From a virus, in the IMG/VR virus record IMGVR_UViG_3300035698_021428: a stretch of DNA of 49,956 bases. One strand, given 5' to 3'. The notes below the pieces were generated by a model. The model was given only the letters and a program-made list of their open reading frames with translations. It did not search any database and was not told the DNA's origin. Positions 649 through 30,064 of the stretch are shown piece by piece (position 1 is the stretch's first letter; the number at the start of each line of letters is the position of its first letter). A program made the translations under genes and the position numbers.

Positions 649-1803
649 ATGACAACACCTAATTGGACAGAAGACGTTAGAGCAAAAGGTAACACAAAAA
701 TTACCTGGGCCAATCATCTTTGCGATGACGAGCAAGCGAACGTTGTCGGTCGCGTCGTTTTTGTTCGATCATTCGGTTCGTTGACCTTCATCGTTATCCG
801 CGATGCGGCAGATAGTATACAGATTGGACTGAAGGGCAAGATTGCTCCGCCGCCGATGTGGAGCATTATCTCCGTTCATGGCGTAACTGGTAAGACCAAG
901 AAGGGCGAGCATACTGTTTGGACAGAGAAGTTTGAGTTGCTTGCTGAATGCAACGGAAATATGCCTGACAAGTTTCATGGCATCGAAAATGCTGAATACA
1001 TTTACAACAATAGGCCAGCGCATCTTATCGCTAATCCTGATCATTCTCATAATCTAATGATGCGTAGCCGAATTATTCGGGAGCTTCGTAGACGGCTTGA
1101 AGATGTTCATGCCTTTATGGAAGTCGAAACTCCCTTATTGAACGATGAACCTACAGGTGCCAATGCTAAGCCGTTCATAACTCATCATAATGCAGAGAGC
1201 GAAGACAAGTACCTGAGAATTGCTCTTGAGGTTCCGCTGAAGAAAGCTATCATTGCAGGTTTTCCTAATGTTTTTGAAATCGGTCGTGTATTCAGGAATG
1301 AAGGCGTTGACCGAACTCACCGCCCTGAGTTTACGATGGTTGAGATGTATTCATCTCCTGGTACGCTACAGAACATGAAGGATCTGTTCATTGACCTTGT
1401 ATCTCATTTGCGTGGAGAGTATATCAAGATTCCGACCTATGAGTATGACGACCTTGTAGCTGAACATGGCGAAGATTTTGATGAGCATATGCAGGAACTT
1501 TGCTTCGTCGCTGGTCAGCCTCTTGAACAGACACCGCTTTGCAAGGCTCGTGCTGATGGAAAGGCTGATAGGTTCGAGATCTTCGGTAGAGGCTTCGAGA
1601 TCGCCAACGCTTTTCAGGAGGTTCATACCGCCGAGGAACAGAGAGAGCGTCTTAGCGGCCAAACAGAAGGCTCTGATGACGGCTTGATTGGCGCTCTTGA
1701 GTACGGAATGGCTCCAACAGGCGGAATGGGTATCGGTATTGACCGATTGGTTATGTACCTGCTTGAAATAAACAATGTAAGAGACGTAATTCTTTTTCCA
1801 TAA
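649..1803 (+). CDS. lysS: lysyl-tRNA synthetase-like class II aminoacyl-tRNA synthetase, compact (384 aa)
   Basis: N-terminal OB-fold-like segment (VVGRVVFVRSFGSLTFIVIRD). Motif 2 'FEIGRVFRNEGVDRTHRPEFTMVEMY' is LysRS-type (FRNEG / H.PEFT). Motif 3 is 'GGMGIGIDRLVMYL'. About 120 aa shorter than bacterial LysS. Confidence 0.8.
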   Translation: MTTPNWTEDVRAKGNTKITWANHLCDDEQANVVGRVVFVRSFGSLTFIVIRDAADSIQIGLKGKIAPPPMWSIISVHGVTGKTKKGEHTVWTEKFELLAECNGNMPDKFHGIENAEYIYNNRPAHLIANPDHSHNLMMRSRIIRELRRRLEDVHAFMEVETPLLNDEPTGANAKPFITHHNAESEDKYLRIALEVPLKKAIIAGFPNVFEIGRVFRNEGVDRTHRPEFTMVEMYSSPGTLQNMKDLFIDLVSHLRGEYIKIPTYEYDDLVAEHGEDFDEHMQELCFVAGQPLEQTPLCKARADGKADRFEIFGRGFEIANAFQEVHTAEEQRERLSGQTEGSDDGLIGALEYGMAPTGGMGIGIDRLVMYLLEINNVRDVILFP

Positions 1804-5775: not shown

Positions 5776-5850
5776 GGCCGTCTACCAAAAATGGACAAAC
5801 GGCTCTGATTGCAAATCAGATGTGTGCGAGTTCGAGTCTCGCGGCGGCCT
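5776..5850 (+). tRNA. tRNA-Cys (GCA)
   Basis: Acceptor ggccgtc/ggcggcc. Anticodon arm tctga-ttGCAaa-tcaga. T arm gcgag-ttcgagt-ctcgc. Discriminator U. Confidence 0.8.
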
Positions 5851-6052: not shown

Positions 6053-6057
6053 AATTA

Positions 6058-6128
6058 GCAGGTATGGCATATTGGCTGTGCATCACTCTTCCAAGGTGAA
6101 TAAAGGAGTTCGATTCTCCTTACCTGCT
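6058..6128 (+). tRNA. tRNA-Gly (UCC)
   Basis: Perfect acceptor gcaggta/tacctgc. Anticodon arm tcact-ctTCCaa-ggtga. T arm aggag-ttcgatt-ctcct. Confidence 0.8.
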
Positions 6129-6491
6129 TTAGAAAGGAAAATTACAAACGAGTTCCAACCAATAGATAAAAGAGAATTTGATGGATGGCTTGACCCAAAA
6201 GGAAACTTCTATCAAACCCGATGTCATATAACATGGGCATCCGAAGATATAAAATACGAGAATAAAGAACTCTACAAAGCGTACAGGAAATGGTTCAGAC
6301 AAAGAAAATGCTTATCGAGTGAAACAGCGGTTGAATTTTTGATGAAGTATCATGGTTGGTGGAAGAGATCATCGATCGCAAATAGCAAATTGTGGTTGGG
6401 AGAAATGCCAGCTACTACTGCTCAAAGAAGATACATCAACAACGACATGGGCGAAAGACAGGATAACGGATATTTTGAAAAAGGATATTAG
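6072..6491 (+). CDS. hypothetical protein, start unresolved
   Basis: Open frame from the ORF track. Its TTG start lies inside tRNA-Gly, and no ATG/GTG/TTG occurs for about 95 codons after the tRNA end. The product '...FDGWLDPKGNFYQTRCHITWASEDI...' is not recognised. Confidence 0.4.
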   Translation: MAVHHSSKVNKGVRFSLPALERKITNEFQPIDKREFDGWLDPKGNFYQTRCHITWASEDIKYENKELYKAYRKWFRQRKCLSSETAVEFLMKYHGWWKRSSIANSKLWLGEMPATTAQRRYINNDMGERQDNGYFEKGY

Positions 6492-6498
6492 GTAAAAA

Positions 6499-6570
6499 GC
6501 GAGATTGATGTTAATGGTAGCATGACTGACTTCCACTCAGTTCGTATCAGTTCAAATCTGGTATCTCGCA
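6499..6570 (+). tRNA. second tRNA with UCC anticodon (tRNA-Gly-like)
   Basis: Acceptor gcgagat/atctcgc. D stem atgt/gcat. Anticodon arm actga-ctTCCac-tcagt. T arm atcag-ttcaaat-ctggt. Discriminator A. Confidence 0.7.
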
Positions 6571-6588: not shown

Positions 6589-6613
6589 GGAGACTTCGGT
6601 CTTCAACGTTTTT
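6589..6613 (+). terminator. terminator-like hairpin with UUCG loop
   Basis: ggagac-ttcg-gtcttc followed by aacgTTTTT. Confidence 0.4.
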
Positions 6614-6648: not shown

Positions 6649-6679
6649 CCGCGGCGAAGGTTCGCCCTGCCGCGGTTTT
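6649..6679 (+). terminator. GC-rich hairpin plus T-run abutting the next tRNA
   Basis: Stem ccgcggc/gccgcgg (7 bp), 13-nt loop, then TTTT. It ends 1 nt before the tRNA at 6680. Confidence 0.4.
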
Positions 6680-6762
6680 GCTGATGTGAGCCGAATTGGT
6701 AAGGCAGCACTCTTGTAAAGTGCCGAGGAAACTCACTGCAGGTTCGAGTCCTGTCATCAGCT
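6680..6762 (+). tRNA. long-variable-arm (class II-like) tRNA; hand-read anticodon UGU (6714-6716)
   Basis: Perfect acceptor gctgatg/catcagc. Leu/Tyr-like D loop gaattggtaa. Anticodon arm gcact-ctTGTaa-agtgc. The 14-nt variable arm has stem gag/ctc and a GAAA loop. T arm gcagg-ttcgagt-cctgt. Confidence 0.6.
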
Positions 6763-6768
6763 TTCAAA

Positions 6769-7005
6769 CGAGAAGGAGAACAGCCAACCCATCGCTCTAC
6801 CCGTCACTGTTTCCATACGGATGAGAGGAAGGTCAGGACTGCACTTCGCAAAAACTCAGGAGGCCGTAAAATAGCCGTTCGAACTGGGGAGGCAGCAACC
6901 TCAAACAAGCCTAGCGTGGGCGAAGCGCTATAATGGTTGGGTTGGGGGCCACAAGATAAATGATGGGATAGAACAGGATCCTGCCTACGGGCACTTTCCT
7001 TCTCG
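6769..7005 (+). ncRNA. rnpB: RNase P RNA, bacterial type-A-like but compact (~237 nt)
   Basis: CR-I-like 'GAGGAAGGUCAGGAC' at 6825-6839 (E. coli: GAGGAAAGUCCGGGC). 'AGAUAAAUGAU' at 6954-6964 (E. coli: AGAUGAAUGAC). 'AUAGAAC..UCCUGCCUAC' at 6968-6988 (E. coli: ACAGAACCCGGCUUAU). The P4 helix 6830-6838/6979-6986 has bulged U6833 and three compensatory changes. The P1 helix is 6769-6779/6995-7005. No credible ORF. Confidence 0.8.
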
Positions 7006-7031
7006 TTTTTCAGTAGCATTGGTGTTAACGA

Positions 7032-7382
7032 TTAGCATTTCTGGTTATGTCTATTTTTTCTACCATTGCCTTTATTTAGATTACCGTAATTCGGCGTAAG
7101 AGAGTGACAATTAGGGCATAGTATTTCCAAATTAGTTTCTACATTATTTTTGTAGTTTCCATCTTTATGATGTATAGTAAGGGGCTTTTTGTTTGTAATT
7201 TTGTTTACTCTATCCCAATTACATTTTTCGCATTTTTCTCCTCGAATCAAATAAAGATATCTTCTAACAAAAGGTGAAATATTCTCGCCAGCTAGACCTG
7301 TTTTTTGTCCATTTTTCCATTTGCTAACATTCGTTTTAAAAACAAATTCCGAACTACATTTACGAGAGCAACATTTATTCAA
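7032..7382 (-). CDS. HNH homing-type endonuclease (116 aa)
   Basis: 'HHKDGNYKNNVETNLEILCPNCHS' HNH motif plus N-terminal Cys pairs. Free-standing inside the tRNA island. Confidence 0.85.
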   Translation of the reverse strand: MNKCCSRKCSSEFVFKTNVSKWKNGQKTGLAGENISPFVRRYLYLIRGEKCEKCNWDRVNKITNKKPLTIHHKDGNYKNNVETNLEILCPNCHSLTPNYGNLNKGNGRKNRHNQKC

Positions 7383-7452: not shown

Positions 7453-7553
7453 GTCTGCGTAGCTCAACGATAGAGCGCCCAACCTGCGATACAGTGTGCC
7501 CTTGGGAGACTGTCAGCTATGGGATGTTGCTGGTTCGAATCCAGTCGCAGACT
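7453..7553 (+). tRNA. tRNA-like gene (101 nt) with normal acceptor, D and T arms but a ~46-nt irregular anticodon region; anticodon not assignable by eye
   Basis: Acceptor gtctgcg/cgcagac. Arg-like D arm gtagctcaacgatagagc. T arm gctgg-ttcgaat-ccagt. Between them, cccaa...(a/t)tggg encloses the hairpin acagt-gtgcccttgggag-actgt. Confidence 0.5.
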
Positions 7554-7740: not shown

Positions 7741-7813
7741 TCCGTCTTAGCTCAATTGGCAGAGCAGCATACTCGTAATATGCAGGTTATCGGTTCGATG
7801 CCGGTAGACGGAT
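7741..7813 (+). tRNA. tRNA-Thr (CGU)
   Basis: Acceptor tccgtct/agacgga. D arm gctc-aattggc-agagc. Anticodon arm gcata-ctCGTaa-tatgc. T arm atcgg-ttcgatg-ccggt. Confidence 0.8.
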
Positions 7814-11158: not shown

Positions 11159-11241
11159 GGTGGCTATGGCAGATTGGTAATGCACCTGGTTGTGGACCAG
11201 GAACCGTAAGGTTTATGCGGGTTCAAATCCCGTTAGTCACC
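11159..11241 (+). tRNA. tRNA-His (GUG) with encoded G-1 and an unusual 15-nt variable arm
   Basis: 5' g-gtggcta resembles E. coli tRNA-His GGUGGCUA. Anticodon arm cctgg-ttGTGga-ccagg. Variable arm aacc-gtaa-ggtt-tat. T arm gcggg-ttcaaat-cccgt. C73. Confidence 0.7.
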
Positions 11242-11249
11242 CTTTAGTT

Positions 11250-11321
11250 TGGGCTTTAGTGTAATCGGTAGCACAACAGTTTTTGATACTGTCAGTCTGG
11301 GTTCAAGTCCCAGTTGCCCAA
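11250..11321 (+). tRNA. tRNA-Gln (UUG)
   Basis: U1:A72. Anticodon arm acagt-ttTTGat-actgt, the same loop as E. coli tRNA-Gln. T arm ctggg-ttcaagt-cccag. Two U-U mismatches at the base of the acceptor stem. Confidence 0.7.
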
Positions 11322-11336
11322 TTTGAAAGGAAATAT

Positions 11337-11672: not shown

Positions 11673-12300
11673 ATGAGAATCGAGAAACAAGCAAAAGGCG
11701 TTAGACTACTCATGAACGACGAGGCTAAGAACCGGAGGTTGGTTCATCAATGCTTGCGTTGAAGCATCAGAAGCCGCTGGCTTCAATGAAATACTGCTTC
11801 CGCTCATTGAGCCAGAAAGTATCTATGAAGAAAAAGCGGGCACTGAGATTCTTAATCAAATGTACACCTTCAAAGACAAGGCAGGAAGAAACCTCTGTCT
11901 AAGACCCGAAGGTACTGCTACTGTCCAACTTGTTGCGCAGAAAATGCGGAACATGAAAGATGTGAAGCTATGGTATGAAACTCGTTGTTGGCGATACGAG
12001 CAGCCGCAGGCTGGGAGATACCGAGAATTCACTCAGTTCGGCGTAGAGTGGCTGAACCCCCGAAACCCTTCAGAGGCCCGAGAAAGTCTAGAAACGCTCG
12101 CCAGAGCGATTGTAGAGCGGCTGGGAGTTGATTACGAGTGGAACGGAACTGCCAAACGAGGATTGGCGTACTATATTGAAGATGGTTTTGAACTAAGCGT
12201 TCCGTCGCTTGTCGCTCAGAAGCAGGTGATTGGCGGTGGGGCTTATACTGAAGGCATCGGATTCGCCGTTGGCGTAGATCGTATTGCGTTGGCAATGTGA
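11673..12300 (+). CDS. histidyl-tRNA synthetase-like class II core (HisRS/HisZ-like, ~210 aa, no anticodon-binding domain), interrupted by a +1 frameshift near 11735-11745; possible pseudogene
   Basis: RBS plus ATG 11673 gives 29 codons, then TGA at 11760. The +1 frame continues with 'FINACVEASEAAGFNEILLPLIEP', 'LRPEGTA', motif 2 'RYEQPQAGRYREFTQFGVE', 'GGGAY' and motif 3 'GFAVGVDRIALAM'. Confidence 0.7.
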
Positions 12301-13070: not shown

Positions 13071-13279
13071 CTGAAAATGAGTTAAAATACGGCAAAAAAT
13101 TAAACAGACTTCTTCATAAAAAAGCAATGGGATATGAGGGCTCTATGATTTTTTCTGAAGGAGTATTATACGGATGGAAGAATGCAGGTTTAATAACTGC
13201 TGCTGAAAGCAGTAGGCTTGTCAAGGCATTTTGTACTGAAAATGATGAAATCGATATGACTTACGAATATGGAAGATAA
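13067..13279 (+). CDS. hypothetical protein (70 aa)
   Basis: ATGA-coupled to the HNH gene. The last 9 nt overlap the tRNA-Ser 5' end. Confidence 0.5.
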   Translation: MTENELKYGKKLNRLLHKKAMGYEGSMIFSEGVLYGWKNAGLITAAESSRLVKAFCTENDEIDMTYEYGR

Positions 13280-13355
13280 TCCCGAACGGTGACGGGCACT
13301 ACTTGGAAAGTAGTTGGAGGTTAATAGCCTTGCGGTTCGATCCCGCTGTCTTCCT
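13271..13355 (+). tRNA. tRNA-Ser (GGA), long variable arm, best folded as 8-bp acceptor / 4-bp T stem
   Basis: Acceptor ggaagata/tgtcttcc. D stem cccg/cggg. Anticodon arm actac-ttGGAaa-gtagt. Variable arm tggaggttaatagcctt. T arm gcgg-ttcgatc-ccgc. Confidence 0.8.
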
Positions 13356-14059: not shown

Positions 14060-14065
14060 GTAATT

Positions 14066-14149
14066 GGAAGAGCTTCCGATGGAGCGGTAGTTTGTTTTGA
14101 AAACAAATGTGGTGTAAAAGCCTTGCAGGTTCGAGTCCTGTCTCATCCG
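14066..14149 (+). tRNA. tRNA-Ser (UGA), long variable arm, 7/5 fold with one A-A acceptor mismatch
   Basis: Acceptor ggaagag/ctcatcc. Anticodon arm tttgt-ttTGAaa-acaaa. T arm gcagg-ttcgagt-cctgt. Discriminator G. Confidence 0.7.
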
Positions 14150-14155
14150 TTTATT

Positions 14156-18578: not shown

Positions 18579-19538
18579 ATGACCGATCTGGTGACGTTTT
18601 CAAACTTTTTCATGATTTCTGGTTTTCTTTTGGCGGCTTATTCTGTAGTAGCCAACGATAGCGTTCAAACGCTTGGAACATTTATGGCCTCCAATAGCCA
18701 TAGGCGATGGTGGGTTCTTTGGTTGTCAGCGTCAGCAGTTCTTGTTGCTACGCTATTATTTAGCTGGTTTGTATATGATGGAGACATAAGTCAGGGGAGA
18801 TTAGACAGCATTCCATATGACGGCAATTTTCAATGGTACCATGCAGTAGCGCCTCTGATTCTTGTTTTCATGACTAGATTTGGGATACCTGTTTCTACAA
18901 CTTTTTTGGTTATCAGCGTATTTGCTAGTTCAGTTGTAATCGAAAAGGTTATATTAAAATCTGTGATGGGATATGGAGTTGCGGCGATAACGGCATATAC
19001 TCTATGGACAGTTTTGAGCAGATTCTTAGACGAACATGATAAAGTCGATCCCAAGAACCGCAATAGATGGTTTATAGCTCAATGGCTAACCACTGGCTTT
19101 TTGTGGTCTACCTGGTTGAGTCATGATATGGCAAACATCGCTGTCTACATGCCTCGGCAACTAAGCTTTCCATTGCTTCTAGTCGTCTTTGTTGTTCTTA
19201 TTAGCGGTTTGGCTATGACCTTCAAGCTTCGAGGCGGCAGGATCCAGAAAATCGTTCTCGACAAAACAGGCACTCGATATGCTAGAAGCGCGACCATTAT
19301 CGATTTCGTCTTTGCATGCATTCTCTTAGTTTTCAAAGAATGGTCCACGATACCAATGTCAACGACCTGGGTCTTCGTTGGTCTGCTTTGCGGTCGAGAA
19401 TTAGCGATTCATGCATCAGTAAAATTCGAGAGTACGAAAGCCGTATTCCCCATTATTGCCAAAGATTTTGCCAAGGTTCTTGTTGGGCTTGGCGTATCGC
19501 TAGTTCTTGTATGGATCATTCAAGGGACAAAAATATAG
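18579..19538 (+). CDS. polytopic membrane protein (319 aa), tentatively PiT/PHO4-like transporter
   Basis: About 9 hydrophobic segments. 'VVANDSVQTLGTF' and 'SHDMANIAVY' weakly resemble the duplicated GANDVAN signature of PiT phosphate transporters. Confidence 0.6.
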   Translation: MTDLVTFSNFFMISGFLLAAYSVVANDSVQTLGTFMASNSHRRWWVLWLSASAVLVATLLFSWFVYDGDISQGRLDSIPYDGNFQWYHAVAPLILVFMTRFGIPVSTTFLVISVFASSVVIEKVILKSVMGYGVAAITAYTLWTVLSRFLDEHDKVDPKNRNRWFIAQWLTTGFLWSTWLSHDMANIAVYMPRQLSFPLLLVVFVVLISGLAMTFKLRGGRIQKIVLDKTGTRYARSATIIDFVFACILLVFKEWSTIPMSTTWVFVGLLCGRELAIHASVKFESTKAVFPIIAKDFAKVLVGLGVSLVLVWIIQGTKI

Positions 19539-20069: not shown

Positions 20070-21881
20070 ATGATTATTGAACGTCAGTTTGAAAGCGCAT
20101 TTTATCATGCTCCCATTGGATTCGCTATCGTCTCTTTCGAAGGATTGTTTTTACGAGTCAATAAGGCTCTCGAAGATCTTCTTGGCTACTCAGAAGAAGA
20201 ACTACTACGAATAACTTTCTATGACATAACTCATCCTGATGAACAAATACTCGGTAGGGAATGTATCGCAGAACTTATGAGCGGCGAGAAAGATTTTTGC
20301 CAGTTCGAAAAACGGTACATCCACAAAAACGGTCAATCAATATGGTGCCTGCTCAACACTTCCGTTGTTCGCAACGAGCGGAATGAACCTGTACATCTAG
20401 TTTCTCAAATACTAAACATACACGAGAAAAAAGAAGTTGATCTAAAACTACATAGAGAAAAACAACAGACTCAAAAAATACTTGATGCTATGGACTCTTT
20501 TATCTGGCATAAAGATACCAATAACAATATTCTTAGAACCAATAAAAAGGTAGCAGACAGTCTTGGCCTTAGAAGATCTGATATTGAAGGTCATTGTTCA
20601 ACTGAGTTTTACCCTATGGAATCGAAAAAACCGATATTTGGAATAACAGAACCAGTCTCTACCAAGAATGGCAAGAAATGGGTTTCAACTGACAAGATTC
20701 CAATGTTTGATGATGATGGAGAAGTTACAGGCATACTCGTTGTTTCAACTGATATAACCGAGATTAAACAACAAGAGCAAAAGCTTGAAGAGTATAGCAG
20801 TAGGCTTGAGGTTGCTCTCGATGCTGGCAATATAGGTATTTGGATATGGTATCCTAAAGAAAATCGTCTTGAATGGGATGATCGGATGTTCGATCTTTAT
20901 GGTAGAAAGAAAGATGATTTCAACGGAACTGTTGAAGACTGGTCTCGTTCTTTGGTTGAAGAAGACAGAGACAATGCCTGTGATAACATAGATCAATCGT
21001 TAGAGAAGGGCGTCCCGTTTATTAGCGAGTTTAGAATTCTAAAAAACGGAGAAATTCGGCACATTACAGCTTATGCGCTTCTTGAGTTAGATGACGAAGG
21101 CGAAATTGAAAGCATGATTGGCGCAAATTACGACATAACCGATATGAAGCGGACTGAGGCCAATCTAAGGAGATCCAATGAGGATCTTGAAAGGTTCGCC
21201 TATGCTGCGTCGCACGACCTTAGAGAGCCTCTTAGAACGATCAAGGGTTTTGCTGACCTGTTAGATTCTAAGTACAGCGACGGTTTTGATGAGACTGCTG
21301 AAAAGTACATGGCCTTCATAAAGCAAGGTTGTCTAAAAATGGAAACCCTCATTAACAGCCTGCTTGCTTATTCCAGAGTTGACAGAGATATGGAGTCTGA
21401 CGAAGTAGATGTCGATATGAATGCCACTGTCAGGACAGTATGCGAATCTTTGATGGCAAAAATAGCAGAGAATGATGCAGACATAGAATGGGATAAAAAT
21501 TTACCAGTAATACAGTCAAATTCTAATCTGATGTTTCAGCTATTGCTAAATCTTATAGGCAATGCGGTGAAGTTTAAAAGCGAAGACAGACGATGCAAGG
21601 TATGTATTACTTGCGAAAACTATGATACTGATGACGAGTTTTTAAAGTTTTGTGTCAGAGATAATGGTATAGGTATCGAGGAAAAATTCCAAGATCGTAT
21701 ATTTGAAATCTTTCAACGATTACATGACAGGTCTATGGAAGGGACAGGCGTTGGTTTGGCTCTTTGCAAGAAAATAGTAGAGAATTTTAATGGAAAGATA
21801 TGGGTGGAATCTGAGTATGGAAAAGGATCGTTATTCTGTTTTACACTCCCTAGGGGAAAGACTATCAATAAGAATAACTAA
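20070..21881 (+). CDS. cytoplasmic multi-PAS sensor histidine kinase (603 aa)
   Basis: Three PAS-like repeats. H-box 'FAYAASHDLREPLRTIKGF'. N box 'LLLNLIGNAVKF'. G1 'VRDNGIGIE'. G2 'GTGVGLALCKKIV'. No TM segment. Confidence 0.9.
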   Translation: MIIERQFESAFYHAPIGFAIVSFEGLFLRVNKALEDLLGYSEEELLRITFYDITHPDEQILGRECIAELMSGEKDFCQFEKRYIHKNGQSIWCLLNTSVVRNERNEPVHLVSQILNIHEKKEVDLKLHREKQQTQKILDAMDSFIWHKDTNNNILRTNKKVADSLGLRRSDIEGHCSTEFYPMESKKPIFGITEPVSTKNGKKWVSTDKIPMFDDDGEVTGILVVSTDITEIKQQEQKLEEYSSRLEVALDAGNIGIWIWYPKENRLEWDDRMFDLYGRKKDDFNGTVEDWSRSLVEEDRDNACDNIDQSLEKGVPFISEFRILKNGEIRHITAYALLELDDEGEIESMIGANYDITDMKRTEANLRRSNEDLERFAYAASHDLREPLRTIKGFADLLDSKYSDGFDETAEKYMAFIKQGCLKMETLINSLLAYSRVDRDMESDEVDVDMNATVRTVCESLMAKIAENDADIEWDKNLPVIQSNSNLMFQLLLNLIGNAVKFKSEDRRCKVCITCENYDTDDEFLKFCVRDNGIGIEEKFQDRIFEIFQRLHDRSMEGTGVGLALCKKIVENFNGKIWVESEYGKGSLFCFTLPRGKTINKNN

Positions 21882-22302
21882 AATACTTCTAGTTGAAGAT
21901 AACCCTGCGGATATAGAACTAACCAAAGAAGCTCTGAAATGCAAAACATGTCAACCTAGCTTACATGTTGTTACTGATGGAGAAAAAGCTATACAGTTTC
22001 TCCTAAACGAGGGAGATTACAAGGATTCTCCTAGACCTGATATTATTTTTTTGGATCTCAACCTTCCAAAAATGTGCGGAAAAGAGGTTCTTTCTATCAT
22101 AAAATCGAACGATGAATTGAAAAGTATACCTGTTATCGTTTTAACAACTTCTGAAAATGAGATTGACATAAATCAGACGTACCAAATGCATGCTAATTGC
22201 TATATTAGAAAACCTGTTGATTTTGAGTCTTTCAGAGAAGCTATACATTCAACAAAGAGTTTTTGGTTTACAGTTGCTAAACTACCGGAAAGCGAGAAGT
22301 AG
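21817..22302 (+). CDS. stand-alone CheY-like response-regulator receiver
   Basis: 'ILLVEDNPADIELTKEAL...PDIIFLDLNLPKMCG...PVIVLTTS...HANCYIRKPVDF'. The start is ATG 21817 or 21790, overlapping the kinase 3' end. Confidence 0.85.
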   Translation: MEKDRYSVLHSLGERLSIRITKILLVEDNPADIELTKEALKCKTCQPSLHVVTDGEKAIQFLLNEGDYKDSPRPDIIFLDLNLPKMCGKEVLSIIKSNDELKSIPVIVLTTSENEIDINQTYQMHANCYIRKPVDFESFREAIHSTKSFWFTVAKLPESEK

Positions 22303-22304
22303 CA

Positions 22305-22745
22305 ATGGACACGACTAGCGTTCTTCTTCTTGATGATGATCATGCATTTGCAAATTTGTTCAAAGAACACCTAACTGATCACGCCAAGGATCACTCAAAT
22401 ATAGAGCTTACTCACGTTGATTCGCTAAAAGCTATCGAGCTAGAGCAGCCTTTTGATATTTATTTTATTGATCACAGGCTCTACGGAAGACCTGCTTCCA
22501 TTGAAATTGTAGAAAGATTAAAAAACGCCGGTTTCGGTGGAAAGATTTTTGTTGTTTCTAAATATGGTGATTTTGATCTTCTCAAAGAACTCATGAAGCT
22601 GGGAATAGACGGGTTCATTGATAAAGATGAGATAAATTACGAAGAACTTGTCAGATTCATTGATAGTTTAAATGCTACTAAGTCTCTGCTTCGTAACCTG
22701 AACAATAAATTCGAAGAGCTAAAAAAGAAGCCTACAGACAGGTGA
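22305..22745 (+). CDS. second receiver-domain-like protein (146 aa), divergent
   Basis: 'VLLLDDDHAFANLFKEHL...FDIYFIDHRL...FVVSKYGD'. Starts 2 nt after the previous stop. Confidence 0.65.
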   Translation: MDTTSVLLLDDDHAFANLFKEHLTDHAKDHSNIELTHVDSLKAIELEQPFDIYFIDHRLYGRPASIEIVERLKNAGFGGKIFVVSKYGDFDLLKELMKLGIDGFIDKDEINYEELVRFIDSLNATKSLLRNLNNKFEELKKKPTDR

Positions 22746-23436: not shown

Positions 23437-26127
23437 ATGCAAGACAATGATTCCGGCGCAATCCGAGGATCATCAGGCGATCTTTTGATCCCTGAAGGTT
23501 CATATGCTCATTTTTAAGGACTAACAACTGGCGCAATTTCGACCAAGGTTGGGCCTGCAAGCGTTTCGCAATCGGGGCAAGAACGTCCTGTTGCGTTCGA
23601 TCCAGCAAGGCGACAATTCATTGAAGTTAGCCGAGAAAGTTCGGTCAAACTCAATGTTATCGCTGATGAAACCAGTTATGTTATTCTTTCAAATCCGTGC
23701 ATTGCAGTCGCAGACGGCGATGACCAGCTTATTTTTCCAGGATCTTCGGACAAGATTCCCAATCAAGGTCTAGAGAGCGGTCGAAAAGTTGTGGTTCATG
23801 GACCTGTCGAATTTTCGCTTTGGCCTGGACAGACTGCAGAAGTTGTCCCGGGTCATGCTCTTCGCTCAAATGAATATCTTGAACTTGTTGTTTATGATGC
23901 TGATGAAGCAAAAGCCAACTGGGAATCAGCCTCCGTTGTTGAGACCAAGAAAACTGGCGGCGATAAAGAAGATAAAGATGATACGCAGGTTACGTCTACT
24001 GCCCCTGCTGATCTTCTTATGGGACAACGATTGGTTGTCAAGGGAACTGAGGTTTCATTCTATCGTCCTCCAACTGGTATACAGGTTGTTCAGAACGAAG
24101 ACAATATCTTTATTCGACAAGCTGTTTCCCTTGAATTACTTGAATACTGTATTCTTATCGACGAAAATGGCAACAAAAGGTATGAGAAGGGACCAGCAGT
24201 TGTTCTTCCTCGTCCATCTGAACGATTTGAAAAAAGCTCTAGAGGCAATAGAAAATTTAGAGCCATTGAGCTTCAAGACCAGGCAGGCGTTCATATCAAA
24301 GCGCTCAAGACCTACCAGGATGACGACGGAAAAGATCGCAAAGCTGGTGATGAATTCTTCTTGACGGGCAAAGATCGTCCTATCTACTACCCTCGCGAAG
24401 AAGAAGCCGTTATTCCTTATAGCGATGGCGAAAAGATTCACTTCGCTGTTGCGGTTCCCAAGGGGGAAGGCCGCTACGTTATGAATAAGACCACCGGTGA
24501 GATCGCAACGATCATCGGCCCCAAGATGCTTCTTTGCGATCCGACTAATGAAGTCATCGTTCGTCGCATCCTTACTGACAGACAAAGTAATGATTGGTAT
24601 CCTGGTAATGATAACTCTAGGCAATACAATCGCAATCTTCGAGAGATTCAGGAAGCTGCAGGAACGGCTGGTGATTTTGTTGACGATACATCAACACGGC
24701 AGGCAGCAACCAGGGGGCTTCATTCGCTGCGAGAAAAAGGCAATCCAAGAGTAGGCGGAGCTTCGTTCTCAAGTATGTCCGCTTCCGCCGGATCGGAACG
24801 AGGTTTTGAAAGCTTCGAACAAGCTGGTTCAGCAATGATGGGAGAACTAGATCGGCCATCAAGCTATACAGAACCCAAAAGCATTACTCTTGATACACGT
24901 TTTGCAGGAGTTCCTGGTATTGAGCTTTGGACAGGCTACACCGTTATGGTCGTTGACAGAGAAGGAAACCGCCGAATCGTCAGCGGTCCAACCAATATTC
25001 TGCTCAATTATGACGAGTCATTAGAAATCATAGAACTTTCTACCGGCAAACCAAAATCAACAAAAGGATTGATTCGCACAGTATATCTTCGCAGAGATAA
25101 TAATAAGGTTTCCGATTATGTTGAAGTTGAGACAAAAGACCATGTGAAAGTACAAGTAAAACTGTCATTCCTGGTCAATTTTGTTGAAGACAATCCTAAT
25201 GACGATCAGGATGATACCGATTATCAAGAGCGTTGGTTTGCTAGCGAAAACTATGTCAAGCTTCTTTGCGATCATGTTCGCTCGATTCTTAAGGGCGAAG
25301 CTAAAAAGCACGATATCAATAACTTTTATATCAACTCAACATCTATCATCAGAGATATCATTCTTGGTAATCGTCAGGAAGATGGCAGAACAGGTATGTT
25401 CTTTGAACATAATGGTATGCATGTTATCGATGTTGAGGTTCTTGGAACAGAAATTCTTGATCACAGCATTGCTTCGCTACTTACTGGCTCTCAGCGAGAA
25501 GCAGTTGAATCAAGTATTCGTCTTCAGTCTGCCGAAAGAACGCTTAATGTAACTGAGCAAATGGAAGCGATGTCTCGTAAAGAAGCAGTTGCTAAGAATG
25601 AGACCAAGAAGCACGCACACGATCTAACGATAGAAAGCATTGGAAGAACTCTGAAGGAGTCCCTAGCAGACATATCTTCAGAACAAGACAAGTCCGTTCA
25701 TAGGCTTACTGCTCGTACTGCCGAAGCTGAAGCTACTAAAATGGCAAACGTTATTGAGGCCGAAGCTGCGGTCGCAGGAAGCGAGATTGAGCGAGAAGAT
25801 CAGAAACTCGATCATGAACAGAAAATCTTAGAAGCAGAAGAAATAGCTAGGCTTGACAAGGAAGCGATTGAAACCGAAGTCAAGGCCACAGTTGATAAGC
25901 TCAAGGCCCTTGAAGGTTCGGGGTTGACCGACGTTCTTGCTACGCTTGGTCGAGAAGACTTCTTGACCCGTATAGCTGAATCCAGCAATCTTGAACGATT
26001 GATTGGCGGAGCTAGCGTCCAAGATACTTTGACCGGAATTTTCGGCGTTGAGTCGCCTATTGCTAAGGCGTTCGTTGCTATCAAGGCAGGAAAGCCGCTT
26101 GCTCAATCTTTGCTCAATAGCGACTAG
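23437..26127 (+). CDS. major vault protein (MVP) homolog: vault repeats, SPFH-like shoulder and cap-helix (~896 codons) with one in-frame TAA at 23515-23517
   Basis: GGAGA RBS plus ATG 23437. 'LLIPEGSYAHF*GLTTGAISTKVGP..ERPVAF' vs human MVP '[25 protein letters not shown]..ERVLF'. 'GDEFFLTGKDRPIYYPREEEAVI' vs '[21 protein letters not shown]'. 'YVMNKTTGEIATIIGPKMLL' vs '[20 protein letters not shown]'. E/A/K-rich C-terminal helix. The track ORF 23791 starts at an internal GTG. Confidence 0.8.
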
Positions 26128-26302: not shown

Positions 26303-26655
26303 GGGGGCGATATGGAATCGCTTCAGTAGGGTAGGAAGGATTGTTGCGAGCCGGGGAACCATGCTTAGGCCCCGTAAAAAAGTATGGAATAATTAGTTGC
26401 CAACAGCAACCCACTCCGCATCGCTGCTTGACAGCGGTGCCTGCAAGTCCTGAACGCCGATACGGGATACGCAGAAGATTTTCGGCTGGTCGTCTGAACA
26501 ACTGTTTCAACCAACAGACGATGAGATAAAGGATGAGACCGCTCCCTGTCGCAGACTGTCGCTGGTCGGCTAGGGGCTAAGATAAAACATCGACTACGCT
26601 CGTAGAAACGCCCAACAAACTACTGAACACGGCGGTTCGAATCCGCCCGCCTCCA
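26303..26655 (+). ncRNA. ssrA: tmRNA (SsrA), tag ANSNPLRIAA
   Basis: 5' GGGGGCGAUAUGGAAUCGC.. pairs with 3' ..GGCGGUUCGAAUCCGCCCGCCUCCA (G3:U70, T arm). The tag ORF GCC AAC AGC AAC CCA CTC CGC ATC GCT GCT TGA lies at 26399-26431. Confidence 0.85.
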
Positions 26656-26664
26656 TTTAGAAAG

Positions 26665-28564: not shown

Positions 28565-28831
28565 TATATTACTTCCTGTAAGTTACAGAAGCCTAGCTGA
28601 ATACCGCCTCGAATAGGGGTTGTAGACAGTTTTTATTGGCGTGGAATAGTAGGTAGATGCCTTTTGGCTCGCCGATACATCTGAATCACTAGTAATAGCT
28701 AGCTTATTTTCAATATGGCTAGCAGGTGAATCAAATTCGACTAAACTTGTCGAACCATGAATCGTCGAACAGGGCTTGCGGCGGAGCCGCTGTTCGTATA
28801 CAAACCGACGCCGCAACAGGAGTGCGAAAGC

Positions 28832-30064
28832 ATGCGACTCAATAAGCTCAGTACGAGCATGACAATCATTGGAATGCTGTCTGCTGCATCTGCCTTTGCG
28901 CAGGATGGTGCCCAGGTCACGAATAGCGAGGACCATCAACGTATGATGTCATCTGAAATAATGAATGACGCAGTATCCCGCAGCGGTACACAATCTGGTC
29001 ATAATGGAAACGGATTCTTTTTCTCAGATCCCGATAGAGACTTCACCCTTAACATCGATGGACAGCTTCAGTTTCGCTACTATGCGAACTTTACTGACAT
29101 GGGAAAAACGGACACAACAACTGGTTTTGAGACGGCTCGAACAAAATTGAGATTTAGCGGCGATGTCAACACCTTCGATTATACAGTTGAAGGTGTTTTT
29201 GCTCCGTCAGGCGGCGGGTTTATGCTGCAAGACGCATTCTTCGGTCACTCTCTAGGTAGCAATGCCAACGTTCAGGTTGGTCAGTTTACGCTACCATTCA
29301 TGCGAGAACAGAACGTTGACAGTAGATATCAGCTTGCTGTTGAACGATCAGTTACCGATGCCGTATTTAATCAGGGCAGAGGCCAGGGTTTGCAGTTGAC
29401 GTTTACTCCTGTGGATATGGATAATGTTCGCTTTACAGCGGCATTCAGCGATGGGTTTAGCACGGCTAACACAGCGTACACATCTTCAATGGAAGCTGAT
29501 TACGCAATTACTGGTCGTTTAGATTGGCTCGCCGCAGGCGAATGGTCTCAGTTCGACGACTTTACTTCTCAACAAGATGAAGATTTTGGTTTCCTTGTAG
29601 GCCTTGCTGGTCACCTGCAGGAAGGCGGCGAAACTGGCGGAACTATGGACACTAAAATGTTCAGTTATACTGCAGATGCTAGCGTTGAGAATGGAGGGTT
29701 CAGTGCCTTTGTTTCAGGCGTTACTCGTTCTACCGAAACTACGGCAACTGAGTTCGATGATTTCGGGCTGGTCGCTCAAAGCGGTTTTAGGGTTACTGAA
29801 AAAGATGAACTATTCGCTCGATGGGATGCTGTCTACGCTGATAGCGATCGTGGTCTTACGAATGATGAGTTCAACTATCTGACCGCTGGCTACAATAGGT
29901 ATCTTGCTGGACACTCAGCTAAGTTCACAGCCGATGTTGTTTATGCTGTTGATGATACTGCTGGTATCGGAAGTCTGACCTCATCCCTTGGCGGACTTGG
30001 AATAATGAGCAGCATGGAAAGCGAAGATGTAGCCTTACGAGTACAGCTACAGCTTCTTTTCTGA
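28832..30064 (+). CDS. outer-membrane beta-barrel porin (porin O/P-like), 410 aa
   Basis: Signal peptide 'MRLNKLSTSMTIIGMLSAASAFA|QDG'. Alternating beta-strand pattern 'FTLNIDGQLQFRYYANF'. C-terminal '...LRVQLQLLF' with terminal Phe. Confidence 0.75.
   Translation: MRLNKLSTSMTIIGMLSAASAFAQDGAQVTNSEDHQRMMSSEIMNDAVSRSGTQSGHNGNGFFFSDPDRDFTLNIDGQLQFRYYANFTDMGKTDTTTGFETARTKLRFSGDVNTFDYTVEGVFAPSGGGFMLQDAFFGHSLGSNANVQVGQFTLPFMREQNVDSRYQLAVERSVTDAVFNQGRGQGLQLTFTPVDMDNVRFTAAFSDGFSTANTAYTSSMEADYAITGRLDWLAAGEWSQFDDFTSQQDEDFGFLVGLAGHLQEGGETGGTMDTKMFSYTADASVENGGFSAFVSGVTRSTETTATEFDDFGLVAQSGFRVTEKDELFARWDAVYADSDRGLTNDEFNYLTAGYNRYLAGHSAKFTADVVYAVDDTAGIGSLTSSLGGLGIMSSMESEDVALRVQLQLLF

What the first reader, a model, noticed from the sequence alone, without database searches (positions are those of the whole stretch)
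6769..7005. Compact (~237 nt) RNase P RNA gene embedded in the tRNA island
The region has no credible ORF but carries the universal RNase P RNA core:
- GAGGAAGGUCAGGAC (CR-I).
- AGAUAAAUGAU (J18/2-like).
- AUAGAAC..UCCUGCCUAC (CR-V).
- A P4 helix (6830-6838 with 6979-6986) that keeps the bulged U and shows three compensatory base-pair changes relative to E. coli.
- P1 and P2 closing helices.

The specificity domain appears strongly reduced: about 130 nt where E. coli has about 250. To my knowledge, an RNase P RNA carried by a phage-like element next to its own tRNAs is not a routinely described feature. It would let the element process its own, partly non-canonical, tRNA precursors.
Basis: partly seen in the sequence, partly recalled or inferred. 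Interest (0 to 1): 0.85.

Follow-up and report, generated by a model that had tools for sequence, protein, structure and literature searches.

The report
Phage-borne miniature RNase P ribozyme gene
The window holds a stripped-down gene for RNase P RNA, the ribozyme that trims tRNA precursors; it belongs to a family of at least 72 sequences seen only on phage contigs and usually inside tRNA arrays, so some large phages appear to carry their own tRNA-processing ribozyme.

Summary
Window 6768-7006 (+) matches Rfam bacterial RNase P class A over the whole model (49.9 bits, E 2e-14). That is below the curated cut-off of 100, which is why routine annotation misses it.

I found 72 distinct homologues. 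All are on IMG/VR viral contigs, metagenome contigs of up to 525 kb, or the deposited 642-kb phage genome LR756502.1. Limited scans of 185,579 species-representative genomes and a plasmid search found none.

Covariation supports every helix: 94% of cells are paired (33-42% in slid controls) and 49 of 54 pairs change on both sides. This includes the P4 and P6 pseudoknots, which were left out of the alignment model. The fixed bases are the catalytic-core motifs, the P4 bulged U, GCAA and GGU.

The specificity domain is reduced to one stem plus a hairpin (about 34 nt) and P18 is missing. The median length is 201 nt.

52 of 72 copies lie within 1 kb of tRNAs, which are almost all on the same strand and often abut the RNA. 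No RnpA gene was found.

Most likely this is a trans-acting, catalytic-domain-only RNase P RNA that uses the host's protein subunit to process phage tRNA arrays. Activity is untested, and I found no prior description.

The parts
6768..7006 (+). Whole compact RNase P RNA gene (239 nt, from the P1 5' end to the P1 3' end)
   Evidence: RF00010 full-length match at 6775-7003, 49.9 bits, E 2.3e-14. Family model R1 scores 6775-7000 at 136.5 bits. The nhmmer family profile gives E 4e-37 and finds a single copy in the window.
6768..6784 (+). P1 5' strand (10-bp outer stem, GAACA internal loop, then 2 bp)
   Evidence: ACGAGAAGGA at 6768-6777 pairs with UCCUUCUCGU at 6997-7006, read. GC at 6783-6784 pairs with 6991-6992. 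In the family all 9 P1 pairs covary.
6991..7006 (+). P1 3' strand, followed by a U run at 7006-7010
6788..6793 (+). P2 5' strand (CCCAUC)
   Evidence: Pairs 6 of 6 with GAUGGG at 6962-6967. All 6 P2 pairs covary and about 97% of P2 cells are paired in the family.
6962..6967 (+). P2 3' strand (GAUGGG)
6795..6825 (+). P3 hairpin, longer here than the 3-bp GAAA-capped P3 of most relatives
   Evidence: CUC at 6795-6797 pairs with GAG at 6823-6825. The inner CCGU/ACGG pairing (6801-6804 with 6817-6820) is read. Family P3 has 2 of 3 pairs covarying.
6825..6839 (+). CR-I / J3-4 and the P4 5' strand, GAGGAAGGUCAGGAC; P4 is 6830-6838 with bulged U6833
   Evidence: GAGGAAG and UC are at least 97% invariant in 72 sequences. 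P4 is 99.5% paired with 6 of 8 pairs showing double changes.
6839..6842 (+). P5 5' strand (CUGC)
   Evidence: Pairs with GCAG at 6892-6895. P5 covaries, with strand pairs such as CAUC/GAUG, CUAC/GUAG, CACC/GGUG and CUGC/GCAG.
6844..6849 (+). P6 pseudoknot 5' strand (CUUCGC)
   Evidence: Pairs with GCGAAG at 6920-6925 in the P17 loop. P6 was not in the alignment model, yet 5 of 5 pairs covary (94.4% paired, 89.5%).
6855..6888 (+). Vestigial specificity domain: a P7-like 5-bp stem (6855-6859 with 6884-6888) enclosing one 3-bp hairpin (6862-6864 with 6874-6876) and conserved junction bases GGAG and CG
   Evidence: All pairs form. The stem and hairpin covary. The Rfam alignment shows about 110 S-domain model positions replaced by 19 nt.
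6892..6898 (+). P5 3' strand and J5/15 (GCAG-CAA); GCAA at 6895-6898 is invariant
   Evidence: GCAA was not part of any search pattern.
6900..6946 (+). P15-P16-P17 arm with the P6 3' strand (6920-6925) and the J16/15 GGU (6940-6942)
   Evidence: P15, P16 and P17 all pair and covary. GGU is at least 97% invariant and was not in any search pattern.
6954..6962 (+). CR-IV / J18-2-like strand AGAUAAAUG; no P18 lies between P15 and this strand
   Evidence: Rfam alignment (23 P18 model positions replaced by 1 nt). The conserved AGA..AUG was partly forced by my last search pattern.
6973..6987 (+). CR-V: J2/4 ACAGGA plus the P4 3' strand UCCUGCCU (6979-6986) and A6987
6680..6762 (+). tRNA-Thr(UGU) ending 5 nt before P1; no encoded CCA, trailer starts UU
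   Evidence: In 23 of 72 relatives a same-strand tRNA ends 12 nt or less before the RNA.

Best explanation
The region is a gene for a miniature, bacterial type-A-derived RNase P RNA carried by a large phage (or a phage-like element).

It keeps the whole catalytic (C) domain: P1-P5, the P4 and P6 pseudoknots, P15-P17 with the GGU loop, and the CR-I, CR-IV and CR-V strands. It has lost P18 and almost all of the specificity (S) domain, which normally reads the tRNA T-loop and D-loop.

Proposed mechanism, step by step:
1. The RNA is transcribed together with neighbouring same-strand tRNAs (inferred from adjacency).
2. It is released from the polycistronic transcript by the tRNA-processing cuts themselves. 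RNase Z or exonucleases act at the upstream tRNA 3' end, and RNase P acts at the downstream tRNA 5' end (inferred).
3. It folds into a C-domain-only ribozyme held together by P4 and P6 (the fold is shown by covariation).
4. It binds the host's RnpA protein, since no phage rnpA was found (inferred).
5. It cleaves 5' leaders and the short inter-tRNA spacers of the phage's tRNA arrays and tmRNA in trans, recognising the acceptor stem and cleavage site rather than the T-loop (inferred from what is known of C-domain-only constructs).

The benefit to the phage would be extra or protected RNase P capacity when dozens of phage tRNAs are expressed at once.
For: Homology:
- RF00010 matches full-length with E 2.3e-14.
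- All 14 short family loci scanned against Rfam hit the RNase P clan full-length at 32-77 bits; a larger relative, L094, also hits it.

Fold (72 distinct sequences):
- 94.2% of cells are paired, against 33-42% with slid partners.
- 49 of 54 pairs have double changes.
- The covariation score is 0.734, against 0.179 for shuffles (0 of 500 shuffles reach it).
- P4 (99.5% paired, 6 of 8 pairs compensatory, bulged U invariant) and P6 (5 of 5 pairs covary) were not in the alignment model.

Selection on the active site:
- The invariant bases are GAGGAAG-UC, GCAA, GGU, AGA..AUG, ACAG-A and CUA, while the helices drift freely.
- UC, GCAA, GGU and CUA were not imposed by the last search pattern.

Context:
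- 52 of 72 copies are within 1 kb of tRNAs.
- 597 of 599 neighbouring tRNAs are on the same strand.
- A tRNA lies 12 nt or less upstream in 23 copies and 12 nt or less downstream in 20.
- Examples: L114, L116 and L139 are flanked on both sides, and L140 sits inside a 28-tRNA array.

Phage carriage:
- IMG/VR contigs of up to 476 kb carry it.
- The deposited 642-kb phage genome LR756502.1 carries it.
- A phage DNA polymerase and a UvsX-like recombinase flank the L140 copy.
- The genome-contig scans returned no family member: the first pattern gave no hit, and none of the 9 hits to the looser pattern matched the family profile. The plasmid search found none.

Plausibility of a C-domain-only enzyme:
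- The E. coli C-domain alone is catalytic with and without C5 protein. It depends on a P6 or 'P6-mimic' pairing, and it does not need P18 once the S-domain is gone (Mao et al. 2018, PMC5839562). That is exactly the set of elements this family keeps and loses.
- Separating polycistronic tRNA transcripts is the essential task of E. coli RNase P, and extra M1 RNA improves it (PMC7049720).
Against: - No activity, expression or end-mapping data exist.
- The Rfam score is half the curated cut-off (49.9 vs 100).
- No RnpA was found in the window or in 278 kb of family loci, or in the viral collection. The protein partner is therefore assumed to come from the host, and C-domain-only RNAs are poor catalysts without protein at physiological salt (my own knowledge).
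- 20 of 72 copies, including the one in the 642-kb phage, have no tRNA within 1 kb.
- Several phages carrying the RNA, this window among them, encode tRNAs without CCA. The invariant GGU therefore cannot be explained simply by CCA pairing on primary transcripts.
- The window's own 50 kb contains no capsid, portal or terminase gene.
Confidence: 0.75

Rival explanations
1. Decoy or hijacker rather than enzyme. The RNA keeps the RnpA-binding core so that it can soak up the host's RNase P protein. This would starve host tRNA maturation, or retarget the protein, and cleavage by the phage RNA itself would not be the point.
For: - No phage rnpA was found, so the RNA must compete for host protein if it binds any.
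- Loss of the S-domain would be expected to lower activity on normal pre-tRNAs (PMC5839562).
- 20 of 72 copies are not next to tRNAs.
Against: - The invariant positions include elements tied to substrate and catalysis rather than only to protein binding: the bulged U in P4, GCAA in J5/15 and GGU in J16/15.
- The P6 pseudoknot, needed for C-domain catalysis (PMC5839562), is maintained by covariation.
- The tight same-strand embedding in tRNA arrays fits a processing role.
- A decoy and an enzyme are not mutually exclusive.
Confidence: 0.1
2. It is an active RNase P-type ribozyme, but its main substrates are not ordinary phage tRNAs. Having lost T-loop recognition, it might be specialised for tRNA-like or hairpin substrates such as tmRNA, non-canonical tRNAs or phage mRNA punctuation sites.
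For: - The S-domain module that measures the T-loop is gone.
- The window holds a tmRNA, two tRNA(CUA) genes and a tRNA-like gene with a 12-nt anticodon-loop insertion 450 nt downstream.
- Some carriers show no tRNAs nearby.
Against: Most copies sit among perfectly ordinary tRNAs covering most anticodons, and nothing ties the RNA specifically to the odd ones. C-domain-only constructs still cleave tRNA precursors (my own knowledge; their activity on model substrates is in PMC5839562).
Confidence: 0.08
3. It is a cellular rnpB: the window and its relatives are fragments of an uncultured, reduced bacterium or symbiont mis-binned as viral.
For: - The window has cell-like genes: a histidine kinase, response regulators, a porin, PhoD and a prepilin-type protein.
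- It has no structural phage gene.
- Its source contig is not on record.
Against: - No family member was found among 185,579 bacterial and archaeal species genomes with two patterns. Those patterns covered only the GAGGAAGGTC P4 variant.
- Relatives lie on IMG/VR contigs, on the deposited 642-kb phage genome, and next to a phage DNA polymerase and UvsX.
- The window has an HNH endonuclease and phrog_21276, whose best matches are jumbo phages.
- The GC range of 38-66% across the family fits many phages of many hosts, not one lineage.
Confidence: 0.04
4. It is a decaying relic of a captured host rnpB, or a fragment left by integration into rnpB, with no function.
For: - Large internal deletions relative to type A.
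- A few copies look damaged or rearranged at the 5' side (L129, L003).
Against: - 72 distinct sequences with mean column identity near 50% keep every helix by compensatory change, and keep the core motifs invariant.
- The molecules are complete from P1 to P1, not 3' fragments.
- The same deletions (S-domain, P18) are shared by the great majority of the family (60 of 72 are 215 nt or shorter; a few larger forms exist).
Confidence: 0.03

Closest known systems
Bacterial RNase P RNA, type A (Rfam RF00010; E. coli M1 RNA)
   Same: - It is the best-scoring Rfam family, and the match spans the whole model.
- It has the same order of elements P1-P2-P3-P4-P5-P6-(S)-P15-P16-P17-J18/2-P2'-J2/4-P4'-P1'.
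- It has the same CR-I, CR-IV and CR-V motifs, the bulged U in P4, the A-rich J5/15 and the GGU in the P15-P16 internal loop.
- It has the type-A-specific P6 pseudoknot with the P17 loop.
   Different: - P7-P14 (including CR-II and CR-III) are reduced to one 5-bp stem plus one 3-bp hairpin.
- P18 is absent, and in most members P3 is cut to 3 bp.
- Length is 185-215 nt in most members, against about 380 nt.
- The score is below the curated Rfam cut-off (32-77 bits vs 100 or 84).
- It is carried by phages, not cells, and no rnpA gene accompanies it.
Archaeal type T RNase P RNA (Pyrobaculum/Thermoproteaceae; Lai et al. 2010, as summarised in PMC7191817)
   Same: It is a natural RNase P RNA of about 200 nt that keeps the C-domain and lacks nearly the whole S-domain (P11, J11/12, J12/11 with CR-II and CR-III, P12), yet is catalytically active. 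It is the only previously known natural C-domain-only form that I am aware of.
   Different: - Type T is archaeal in sequence and partners with archaeal proteins, and it is restricted to one archaeal family.
- The present family is bacterial type A in sequence and helices. Most members score best against RF00010; 2 of the 14 scanned loci scored slightly better against the archaeal model.
- The present family keeps P15-P17, P6 and the GGU loop, and resides in phages.
- The reduction is therefore convergent.
Engineered C-domain-only bacterial RNase P RNAs (e.g. Eco CP RPR; Mao et al. 2018, PMC5839562)
   Same: They have the same set of retained elements. The experiments show that such an RNA is active with or without C5 protein, needs P6 or a 'P6-mimic', and does not need P18.
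   Different: Those are laboratory deletions with reduced efficiency. Here the architecture is natural, maintained by selection across 72 sequences, and retains a small conserved P7-like stem and hairpin with fixed junction bases whose role is unknown.
Theta (minimal HDV-like) ribozymes next to phage tRNAs (Kienbeck et al. 2024, PMC10879173)
   Same: A ribozyme encoded by phages, placed immediately beside phage tRNA genes, and proposed to make tRNA maturation independent of host enzymes.
   Different: Theta ribozymes are small self-cleaving RNAs that act in cis on the tRNA 3' trailer, and they have an unrelated fold. [quoted passage not shown] The RNA here is a trans-acting RNase P homologue for the 5' side.
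Translation-related cargo of huge phages (tRNA arrays, tmRNA, aaRS; Al-Shayeb et al. 2020, PMC7162821)
   Same: The genomic setting is the same: the window has 12 tRNAs, a tmRNA and aaRS genes. One family member lies in the deposited 642-kb phage genome LR756502.1.
   Different: RNase P is not mentioned in that paper (0 occurrences). The RNA adds a processing ribozyme to the known list.

Membership tests
RNase P RNA (universal core) | CR-I (GAGGAAxGUC), CR-IV (AGAxxAAUG) and CR-V (ACAGAAxCCxGCxUA) sequence motifs in the canonical order | tested here: met
   They lie at window 6825-6839, 6954-6962 and 6973-6987. They are at least 97% conserved in 72 homologues, though part of that conservation was forced by the search patterns.
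RNase P RNA (universal core) | P4 long-range helix with a bulged U, formed by CR-I and CR-V | tested here: met
   6830-6838 with 6979-6986, 8 of 8 paired, U6833 bulged. In the family it is 99.5% paired, 6 of 8 pairs have compensatory changes, and the bulged U is invariant.
RNase P RNA (universal core) | Site-specific cleavage of pre-tRNA 5' leaders | not testable with these tools
   This needs an in vitro or in vivo assay.
Bacterial type A (RF00010) | Reaches the curated Rfam gathering score (100 bits) | tested here: not met
   49.9 bits for the window. Relatives score 32-77 bits. Nothing was reported in the default scan.
Bacterial type A (RF00010) | C-domain helices P1, P2, P3, P5, P15, P16, P17 and the P6 pseudoknot | tested here: met
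   All pair in the window and all covary in the family.
Bacterial type A (RF00010) | GGU in the P15-P16 internal loop (3'-CCA binding site) and the A-rich J5/15 | tested here: met
   GGU at 6940-6942 and GCAA at 6895-6898. Both are at least 97% invariant and neither was in any search pattern.
Bacterial type A (RF00010) | Specificity domain P7-P14 with CR-II and CR-III (T-loop/D-loop recognition) | tested here: not met
   About 110 model positions are replaced by 19 nt in the Rfam alignment. Only a 5-bp stem and a 3-bp hairpin remain (6855-6888).
Bacterial type A (RF00010) | P18 hairpin docking on P8 | tested here: not met
   23 model positions are replaced by 1 nt. The family alignment shows 2-4 nt between P15 3' and CR-IV.
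Bacterial type A (RF00010) | Works with an RnpA (C5) protein subunit | tested here: inconclusive
   - No RnpA-like ORF was found in the window by Pfam scans of 41 ORFs.
- None was found in a six-frame search of the window plus 278 kb of relatives. The probes were validated as PF00825.
- None was found in viral contigs.
- Use of the host protein cannot be tested here.
Archaeal type T (minimal RNase P RNA) | C-domain retained with the S-domain nearly absent | tested here: met
   The definition of type T is taken from PMC7191817.
Archaeal type T (minimal RNase P RNA) | Archaeal sequence type and host range (Thermoproteaceae) | tested here: not met
   The best Rfam family is bacterial class A for the window and for 12 of the 14 scanned family loci. 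The carriers are phage contigs.

The most novel reading that the evidence does not exclude
Large and huge phages of many hosts carry their own RNase P ribozyme. It is a natural, roughly 200-nt, bacterial-type RNA made of the catalytic domain alone, which would be the smallest bacterial-type RNase P RNA known. It is embedded in and released from phage tRNA arrays, and it commandeers the host's RnpA protein (or works without protein) to mature phage tRNAs independently of the host RNA subunit. It would be the first virus-encoded RNase P, and the second independent natural loss of the specificity domain after archaeal type T.
Probability: 0.6. Interest if true: 0.88.

Novelty: new variant of a known kind. 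Interest (0 to 1): 0.85.

Why it matters
RNase P is regarded as a universal cellular housekeeping enzyme, and phages with tRNA genes are assumed to depend on the host's copy. A phage-encoded catalytic subunit would matter in four ways.

- **Phage biology.** It adds a ribozyme to the translation toolkit of large phages, alongside tRNAs, tmRNA and aaRS, and it points to tRNA 5' processing as a bottleneck or a battleground during infection.
- **RNase P function.** It is a natural experiment showing that a bacterial-type RNase P can function without its specificity domain. Until now this was known only from engineered constructs and one archaeal family. The experiment comes with 72 sequence variants that mark which bases are indispensable.
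- **Biotechnology.** It offers a very small RNase P scaffold (about 190-200 nt) for structural work and for tRNA-array or guide-RNA processing tools.
- **Annotation.** All members score below Rfam's RNase P cut-off, so they are invisible to standard pipelines. A dedicated model would recover them in viromes.

Tried and rejected
- **Default Rfam scan of the window.** It gave no RNase P hit. The match appears only with an E-value threshold on a short stretch.
- **Thermodynamic folding of the region alone.** The z-score was -1.5, which is uninformative. The real fold is pseudoknotted and was recovered only by comparative analysis.
- **First 15-mer scan of viral contigs.** It returned 106 stretches, mostly chance. 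Profile screening kept 8 true members (7, plus the divergent L003) and one larger relative, L094.
- **The 3'-strand pattern.** It added only non-homologous loci, L107-L113.
- **My first gapped patterns.** They fixed both P4 strands, so P4 looked invariant and said nothing about pairing. A P4-free pattern, prompted by the variant found in LR756502.1, solved this.
- **Search for RnpA.** The search combined Pfam on 41 window ORFs, an HMM of three recalled and Pfam-validated RnpA sequences against six-frame translations, and a viral-collection scan. All were negative.
- **Search for any conserved protein neighbour.** It found only synteny within one sub-clade, plus an artefactual cluster that is the antisense translation of the RNA.
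- **Locating the window's own contig.** Only a 1.5-kb ENA fragment turned up.
- **TAG recoding.** I considered this because of the two tRNA(CUA) genes. TAG ends 10 of 33 long + strand ORFs, so nothing supports it.
- **Cis-cleavage of the abutting downstream tRNA.** I considered and set this aside. A 2-6 nt linker from the end of P1 seems too short to reach the active site. That is inference from known holoenzyme geometry and was not tested.
Full report
**1. The observation**

- GAGGAAGGUCAGGAC lies at 6825-6839.
- AGAUAAAUG lies at 6954-6962.
- ACAGGAUCCUGCCUA lies at 6973-6987.
- An 8-bp P4 forms between 6830-6838 and 6979-6986, with U6833 bulged.
- P1 is a perfect 10-bp stem (6768-6777 with 6997-7006) plus two further pairs.
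- P2 is a 6-bp helix (6788-6793 with 6962-6967).

A default Rfam scan of the whole window reports a tmRNA and ten tRNAs but no RNase P. With an E-value threshold on the 641-nt neighbourhood, RF00010 (bacterial RNase P class A) matches 6775-7003 over model positions 1-367 at 49.9 bits, E 2.3e-14. The gathering score is 100, so the hit is significant but sub-threshold.

In that alignment about 110 model positions of the specificity domain are replaced by 19 nt, and the 23 positions of P18 by 1 nt. Single-sequence folding is uninformative (z = -1.5).

**2. A family**

Pattern scans followed by profile screening found homologues in three places.
- IMG/VR viral contigs.
- JGI/NCBI metagenome contigs: 33 loci, on contigs of up to 524,692 bp.
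- One record of the annotated phage collection: LR756502.1, an unannotated 642,428-bp 'uncultured phage' genome.

A covariance model built from 28 members recovers 80 loci at E <= 1e-8. These comprise 72 distinct sequences, and the window copy scores 136.5 bits.

All 14 short family loci scanned against Rfam hit the RNase P clan over the full model at 32-77 bits, always below the curated cut-offs; a larger relative, L094, also hits it at 37.3 bits.

Two scans of one genome per 185,579 bacterial and archaeal species gave nothing. One returned no hit. The other returned nine hits, about the chance expectation, and none matched the family profile. Both patterns contained GAGGAAGGTC, so only that P4 variant was covered. 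No plasmid record matched.

**3. The structure**

I defined the helices on the typical 195-nt member L040 and projected them onto three alignments.

| Alignment | Sequences | Cells paired | Slid controls | Pairs with double changes | Covariation score (shuffles) |
|---|---|---|---|---|---|
| MAFFT | 28 | 92.9% | 31-44% | 38 of 54 | 0.600 (0.173) |
| Model-based | 32 | 95.4% | 32-47% | 40 of 54 | 0.638 (0.170) |
| Model-based | 72 distinct | 94.2% | 33-42% | 49 of 54 | 0.734 (0.179; 0 of 500 reach it) |

P4 and P6 are pseudoknots and were not in the model, so they are independent tests.
- P6 joins the strand after P5 to the P17 loop. In the window this is CUUCGC with GCGAAG. All five of its pairs covary.
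- P4 looked invariant as long as my search patterns fixed both of its strands.
- The copy in LR756502.1 (AGU[U]CAACA with GUUGACU) and a P4-free pattern then revealed many variants, including CAGGA/UCCUG, CGCGA/UCGCG, CGGGA/UCCCG, CGCGU/ACGCG, CGCGC/GCGCG, CGCCA/UGGCG and CUCGA/UCGAG.
- Across these, P4 is 99.5% paired, 6 of 8 pairs have double changes, and the bulged U never changes.

I made one slip: the P5 5' strand was shifted by one column in the structure given to the model. The counts used the corrected structure.

**4. What is conserved**

Across the 72 sequences, only 34 positions of the window copy are at least 97% identical. They fall in these blocks:
- GAGGAAG-UC (CR-I with the bulged U)
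- GCAA (P5 end and J5/15)
- GGU (J16/15)
- AGA..AUG (CR-IV)
- ACAG-A and CUA (CR-V)

GAGGAAG, AGAYRRATG and ACAGAA were imposed by the last search pattern. UC, GCAA, GGU and CUA were not. Helices drift by compensation while the active-site strands stay fixed, which is the signature of selection on a working ribozyme core.

**5. What is missing**

Between the two P5 strands there is only the P6 strand, a 5-bp stem (6855-6859 with 6884-6888), a 3-bp hairpin (6862-6864 with 6874-6876), and conserved junction bases (GGAG on the 5' side, CG on the 3' side).
- There is no P8-P14, and no CR-II or CR-III.
- P18 is absent.
- In most members P3 is a 3-bp stem with a GAAA-type loop. The window's P3 is longer.

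The median length is 201 nt including 10-nt P1 strands (range 185-372), and 60 of 72 are 215 nt or shorter. A few larger relatives exist: L094 at 372 nt and L161 at 322 nt.

The true remnant is about 34 nt.

**6. Context**

In the window the RNA follows tRNA-Thr(UGU) (6680-6762) by 5 nt. It is part of a + strand island with 12 tRNAs, a tmRNA and aaRS genes.

Family-wide:
- 52 of 72 copies have a tRNA within 1 kb.
- 597 of 599 neighbouring tRNAs are on the same strand.
- A tRNA ends 12 nt or less upstream in 23 copies, and one begins 12 nt or less downstream in 20.
- Some copies are flanked on both sides, for example L114 (tRNA 1616-1686, RNA 1691-1901, tRNA 1902-1972). L140 sits inside a 28-tRNA array.
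- A sub-clade, and the 642-kb phage, have no tRNA nearby.

Evidence that the carriers are phages:
- They are IMG/VR entries of up to 476 kb.
- One is the deposited 642-kb phage genome LR756502.1.
- A phage DNA polymerase (phrog_17, 4e-109) and a UvsX-like recombinase flank the L140 copy.

The window itself has an HNH endonuclease next to the RNA (7032-7382, minus strand), which is 52% identical to a neighbour of the L071 copy. It also has a phrog_21276 protein whose best matches are jumbo phages such as XacN1. It has no structural gene within these 50 kb, and many cell-like auxiliary genes. GC of the RNA ranges from 38 to 66%, which suggests many hosts.

**7. Protein partner**

No RnpA was found by any of three routes.
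- Pfam scans of 41 window ORFs.
- An HMM of three RnpA sequences that I recalled from memory and then validated as PF00825 (E about 1e-33), searched against six-frame translations of the window and 278 kb of relatives.
- A scan of the viral collection.

No other protein is conserved next to the RNA across the family.

**8. Mechanism**

*Shown:* homology to RNase P RNA; the fold; conservation of the core; carriage on phage contigs; tRNA adjacency.

*Inferred:* the RNA is co-transcribed with tRNAs and released by the tRNA-end cuts. It then assembles with host RnpA and cleaves the leaders and short spacers of phage tRNA arrays in trans.

The inference rests on published work.
- An E. coli C-domain alone is catalytic with and without C5 protein. 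It needs a P6 or 'P6-mimic' pairing, and it does not need P18 once the S-domain is removed (PMC5839562). That is exactly what this family keeps and discards.
- Separating polycistronic tRNA transcripts is the essential function of E. coli RNase P, and extra M1 RNA improves it (PMC7049720).

Rivals are listed with their tests: a protein decoy, a specialised non-tRNA substrate range, a cellular origin, and a relic. The covariation and the invariant catalytic bases argue against the relic reading and make a pure decoy less likely. The distribution argues against a cellular origin.

**9. Comparison and novelty**

The RNA is best described as a new, S-domain-less and P18-less structural variant of bacterial type A RNase P RNA. 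It is convergent with archaeal type T and resides in phages. It fails two defining features of RF00010 (the S-domain and P18) and the curated score, so I do not file it as an ordinary member.

Nine full-text searches and targeted reading found no description of a phage- or virus-encoded RNase P RNA.
- The huge-phage paper does not mention RNase P at all.
- The theta-ribozyme paper treats 5' maturation as the job of RNase P and discusses host dependence only for other maturation steps.
- The P Finder survey lists minimal forms only in Thermoproteaceae.

The library lacks most subscription journals, so prior art cannot be excluded.

**10. Verdict**

Confidence that this is a true RNase P RNA homologue under selection is about 0.97. 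Confidence that it acts as a tRNA 5'-processing ribozyme during infection is about 0.75. Interest is 0.85.

Noticed in passing
window tRNAs at 2026-2113, 5776-5850, 6057-6129, 6499-6570, 6680-6762, 7741-7813, 11160-11242, 11249-11322, 13271-13355, 14065-14150, 42649-42720, 45505-45577; tmRNA 26303-26658: None of the 12 tRNAs or the tmRNA encodes a 3'-CCA. All but one (tRNA-Gly 6057-6129: U then A) are followed, right after the discriminator, by UU or UUU, which is an RNase Z-type trailer signature. Across the family the carriers split into phages whose tRNAs all encode CCA (L015, L114, L117, L122, L129, L139, L144) and phages with CCA-less, U-initiated trailers (window, L040, L058, L094, L123, L128). 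The GGU of J16/15 is invariant in both groups.
   Followed up: partly
window 7453-7553 (+): A tRNA-like gene found by Rfam (46.9 bits, 101 nt) but not by default ARAGORN. With introns allowed, ARAGORN reads it as tRNA-Ala(UGC) with a 12-nt insertion in the anticodon loop and a long extra arm.
   Followed up: partly
window 42649-42720 and 45505-45577 (+): There are two tRNAs with a CUA anticodon (amber suppressors, labelled Pyl by ARAGORN). However, TAG ends 10 of 33 long + strand ORFs, and making TAG a sense codon lengthens ORFs less than doing the same for TGA or TAA. So this window shows no sign of TAG recoding.
   Followed up: partly
window 26303-26658 (+): A full-length tmRNA (129.6 bits) with tag peptide ANSNPLRIAA. 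A tmRNA fragment also lies next to the family copy in L129 (1590-1631).
   Followed up: no
window 7032-7382 (-): An HNH endonuclease gene lies 26 nt downstream of the RNA on the opposite strand (PHROG HNH families, 1e-11). A 52% identical homologue lies about 700 nt from the family copy in L071 (13651-13938). It may be a homing endonuclease associated with the tRNA/RNase P island.
   Followed up: partly
window 23791-26127 (+) and 31080-32729 (+): Two genes unusual for a phage-like element. One is a major-vault-protein homologue (MVP shoulder 5e-25, with Vault repeats). The other is a WGR-PARP protein (PARP catalytic domain 9e-21).
   Followed up: no
window 649-1803 (+) and 11860-12300 (+): A class II aaRS of the Asp/Asn/Lys type (2e-60... 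reported as 9.7e-60) is present. A 146-aa HisRS fragment lies about 600 nt downstream of tRNA-His(GUG). The HisRS looks truncated or split.
   Followed up: no
window 20070-22745 (+), 18579-19538 (+), 28757-30064 (+), 35848-38157 (+): A PAS histidine kinase with two response-regulator receivers sits beside phosphate-related genes: a PHO4-like transporter fragment, porin O/P and a PhoD-like phosphatase. This looks like an auxiliary phosphate-acquisition module.
   Followed up: no
L094:4372-4743 (-) and L161:3092-3413 (+): Larger relatives of the family (372 and 322 nt), also beside tRNA arrays. L094 has the window's P4 variant. In L094 about 96 nt occupy the S-domain position and 76 nt the P18 position. 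They may be intermediates between full-size type A and the compact form.
   Followed up: partly
L003:2017-2256 (+) and L129:945-1133 (-): Aberrant members. In L003 no P1 or P2 5' strand is evident, and a local GNRA hairpin (AGCC-GUAA-GGCU) sits where the P2 3' strand should be. L129 keeps the 3' strands of P1 and P2 but its 5' side does not pair. These could be rearranged or degenerate copies, or an even more reduced form.
   Followed up: partly
L019, L051, L118, L131, L135, L137, L142 (flanks of the RNA): In the tRNA-less sub-clade the upstream ORF ends inside J1/2 of the RNA (its stop codon is the UGA of CUGAG). The conserved neighbours include a ThiF/E1-like protein and a JAB/MPN-like protein; both identifications are by eye from the sequences.
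   Followed up: no
window 6589-6604 (+): A terminator-like hairpin (GGAGACUUCGGUCUUC followed by a U run) lies between tRNA-Gly (6499-6570) and tRNA-Thr (6680-6762). A second GC-rich hairpin followed by UUUU (about 6651-6679) abuts the tRNA-Thr 5' end. tRNA-Thr plus the RNase P RNA may therefore form their own transcription unit.
   Followed up: no
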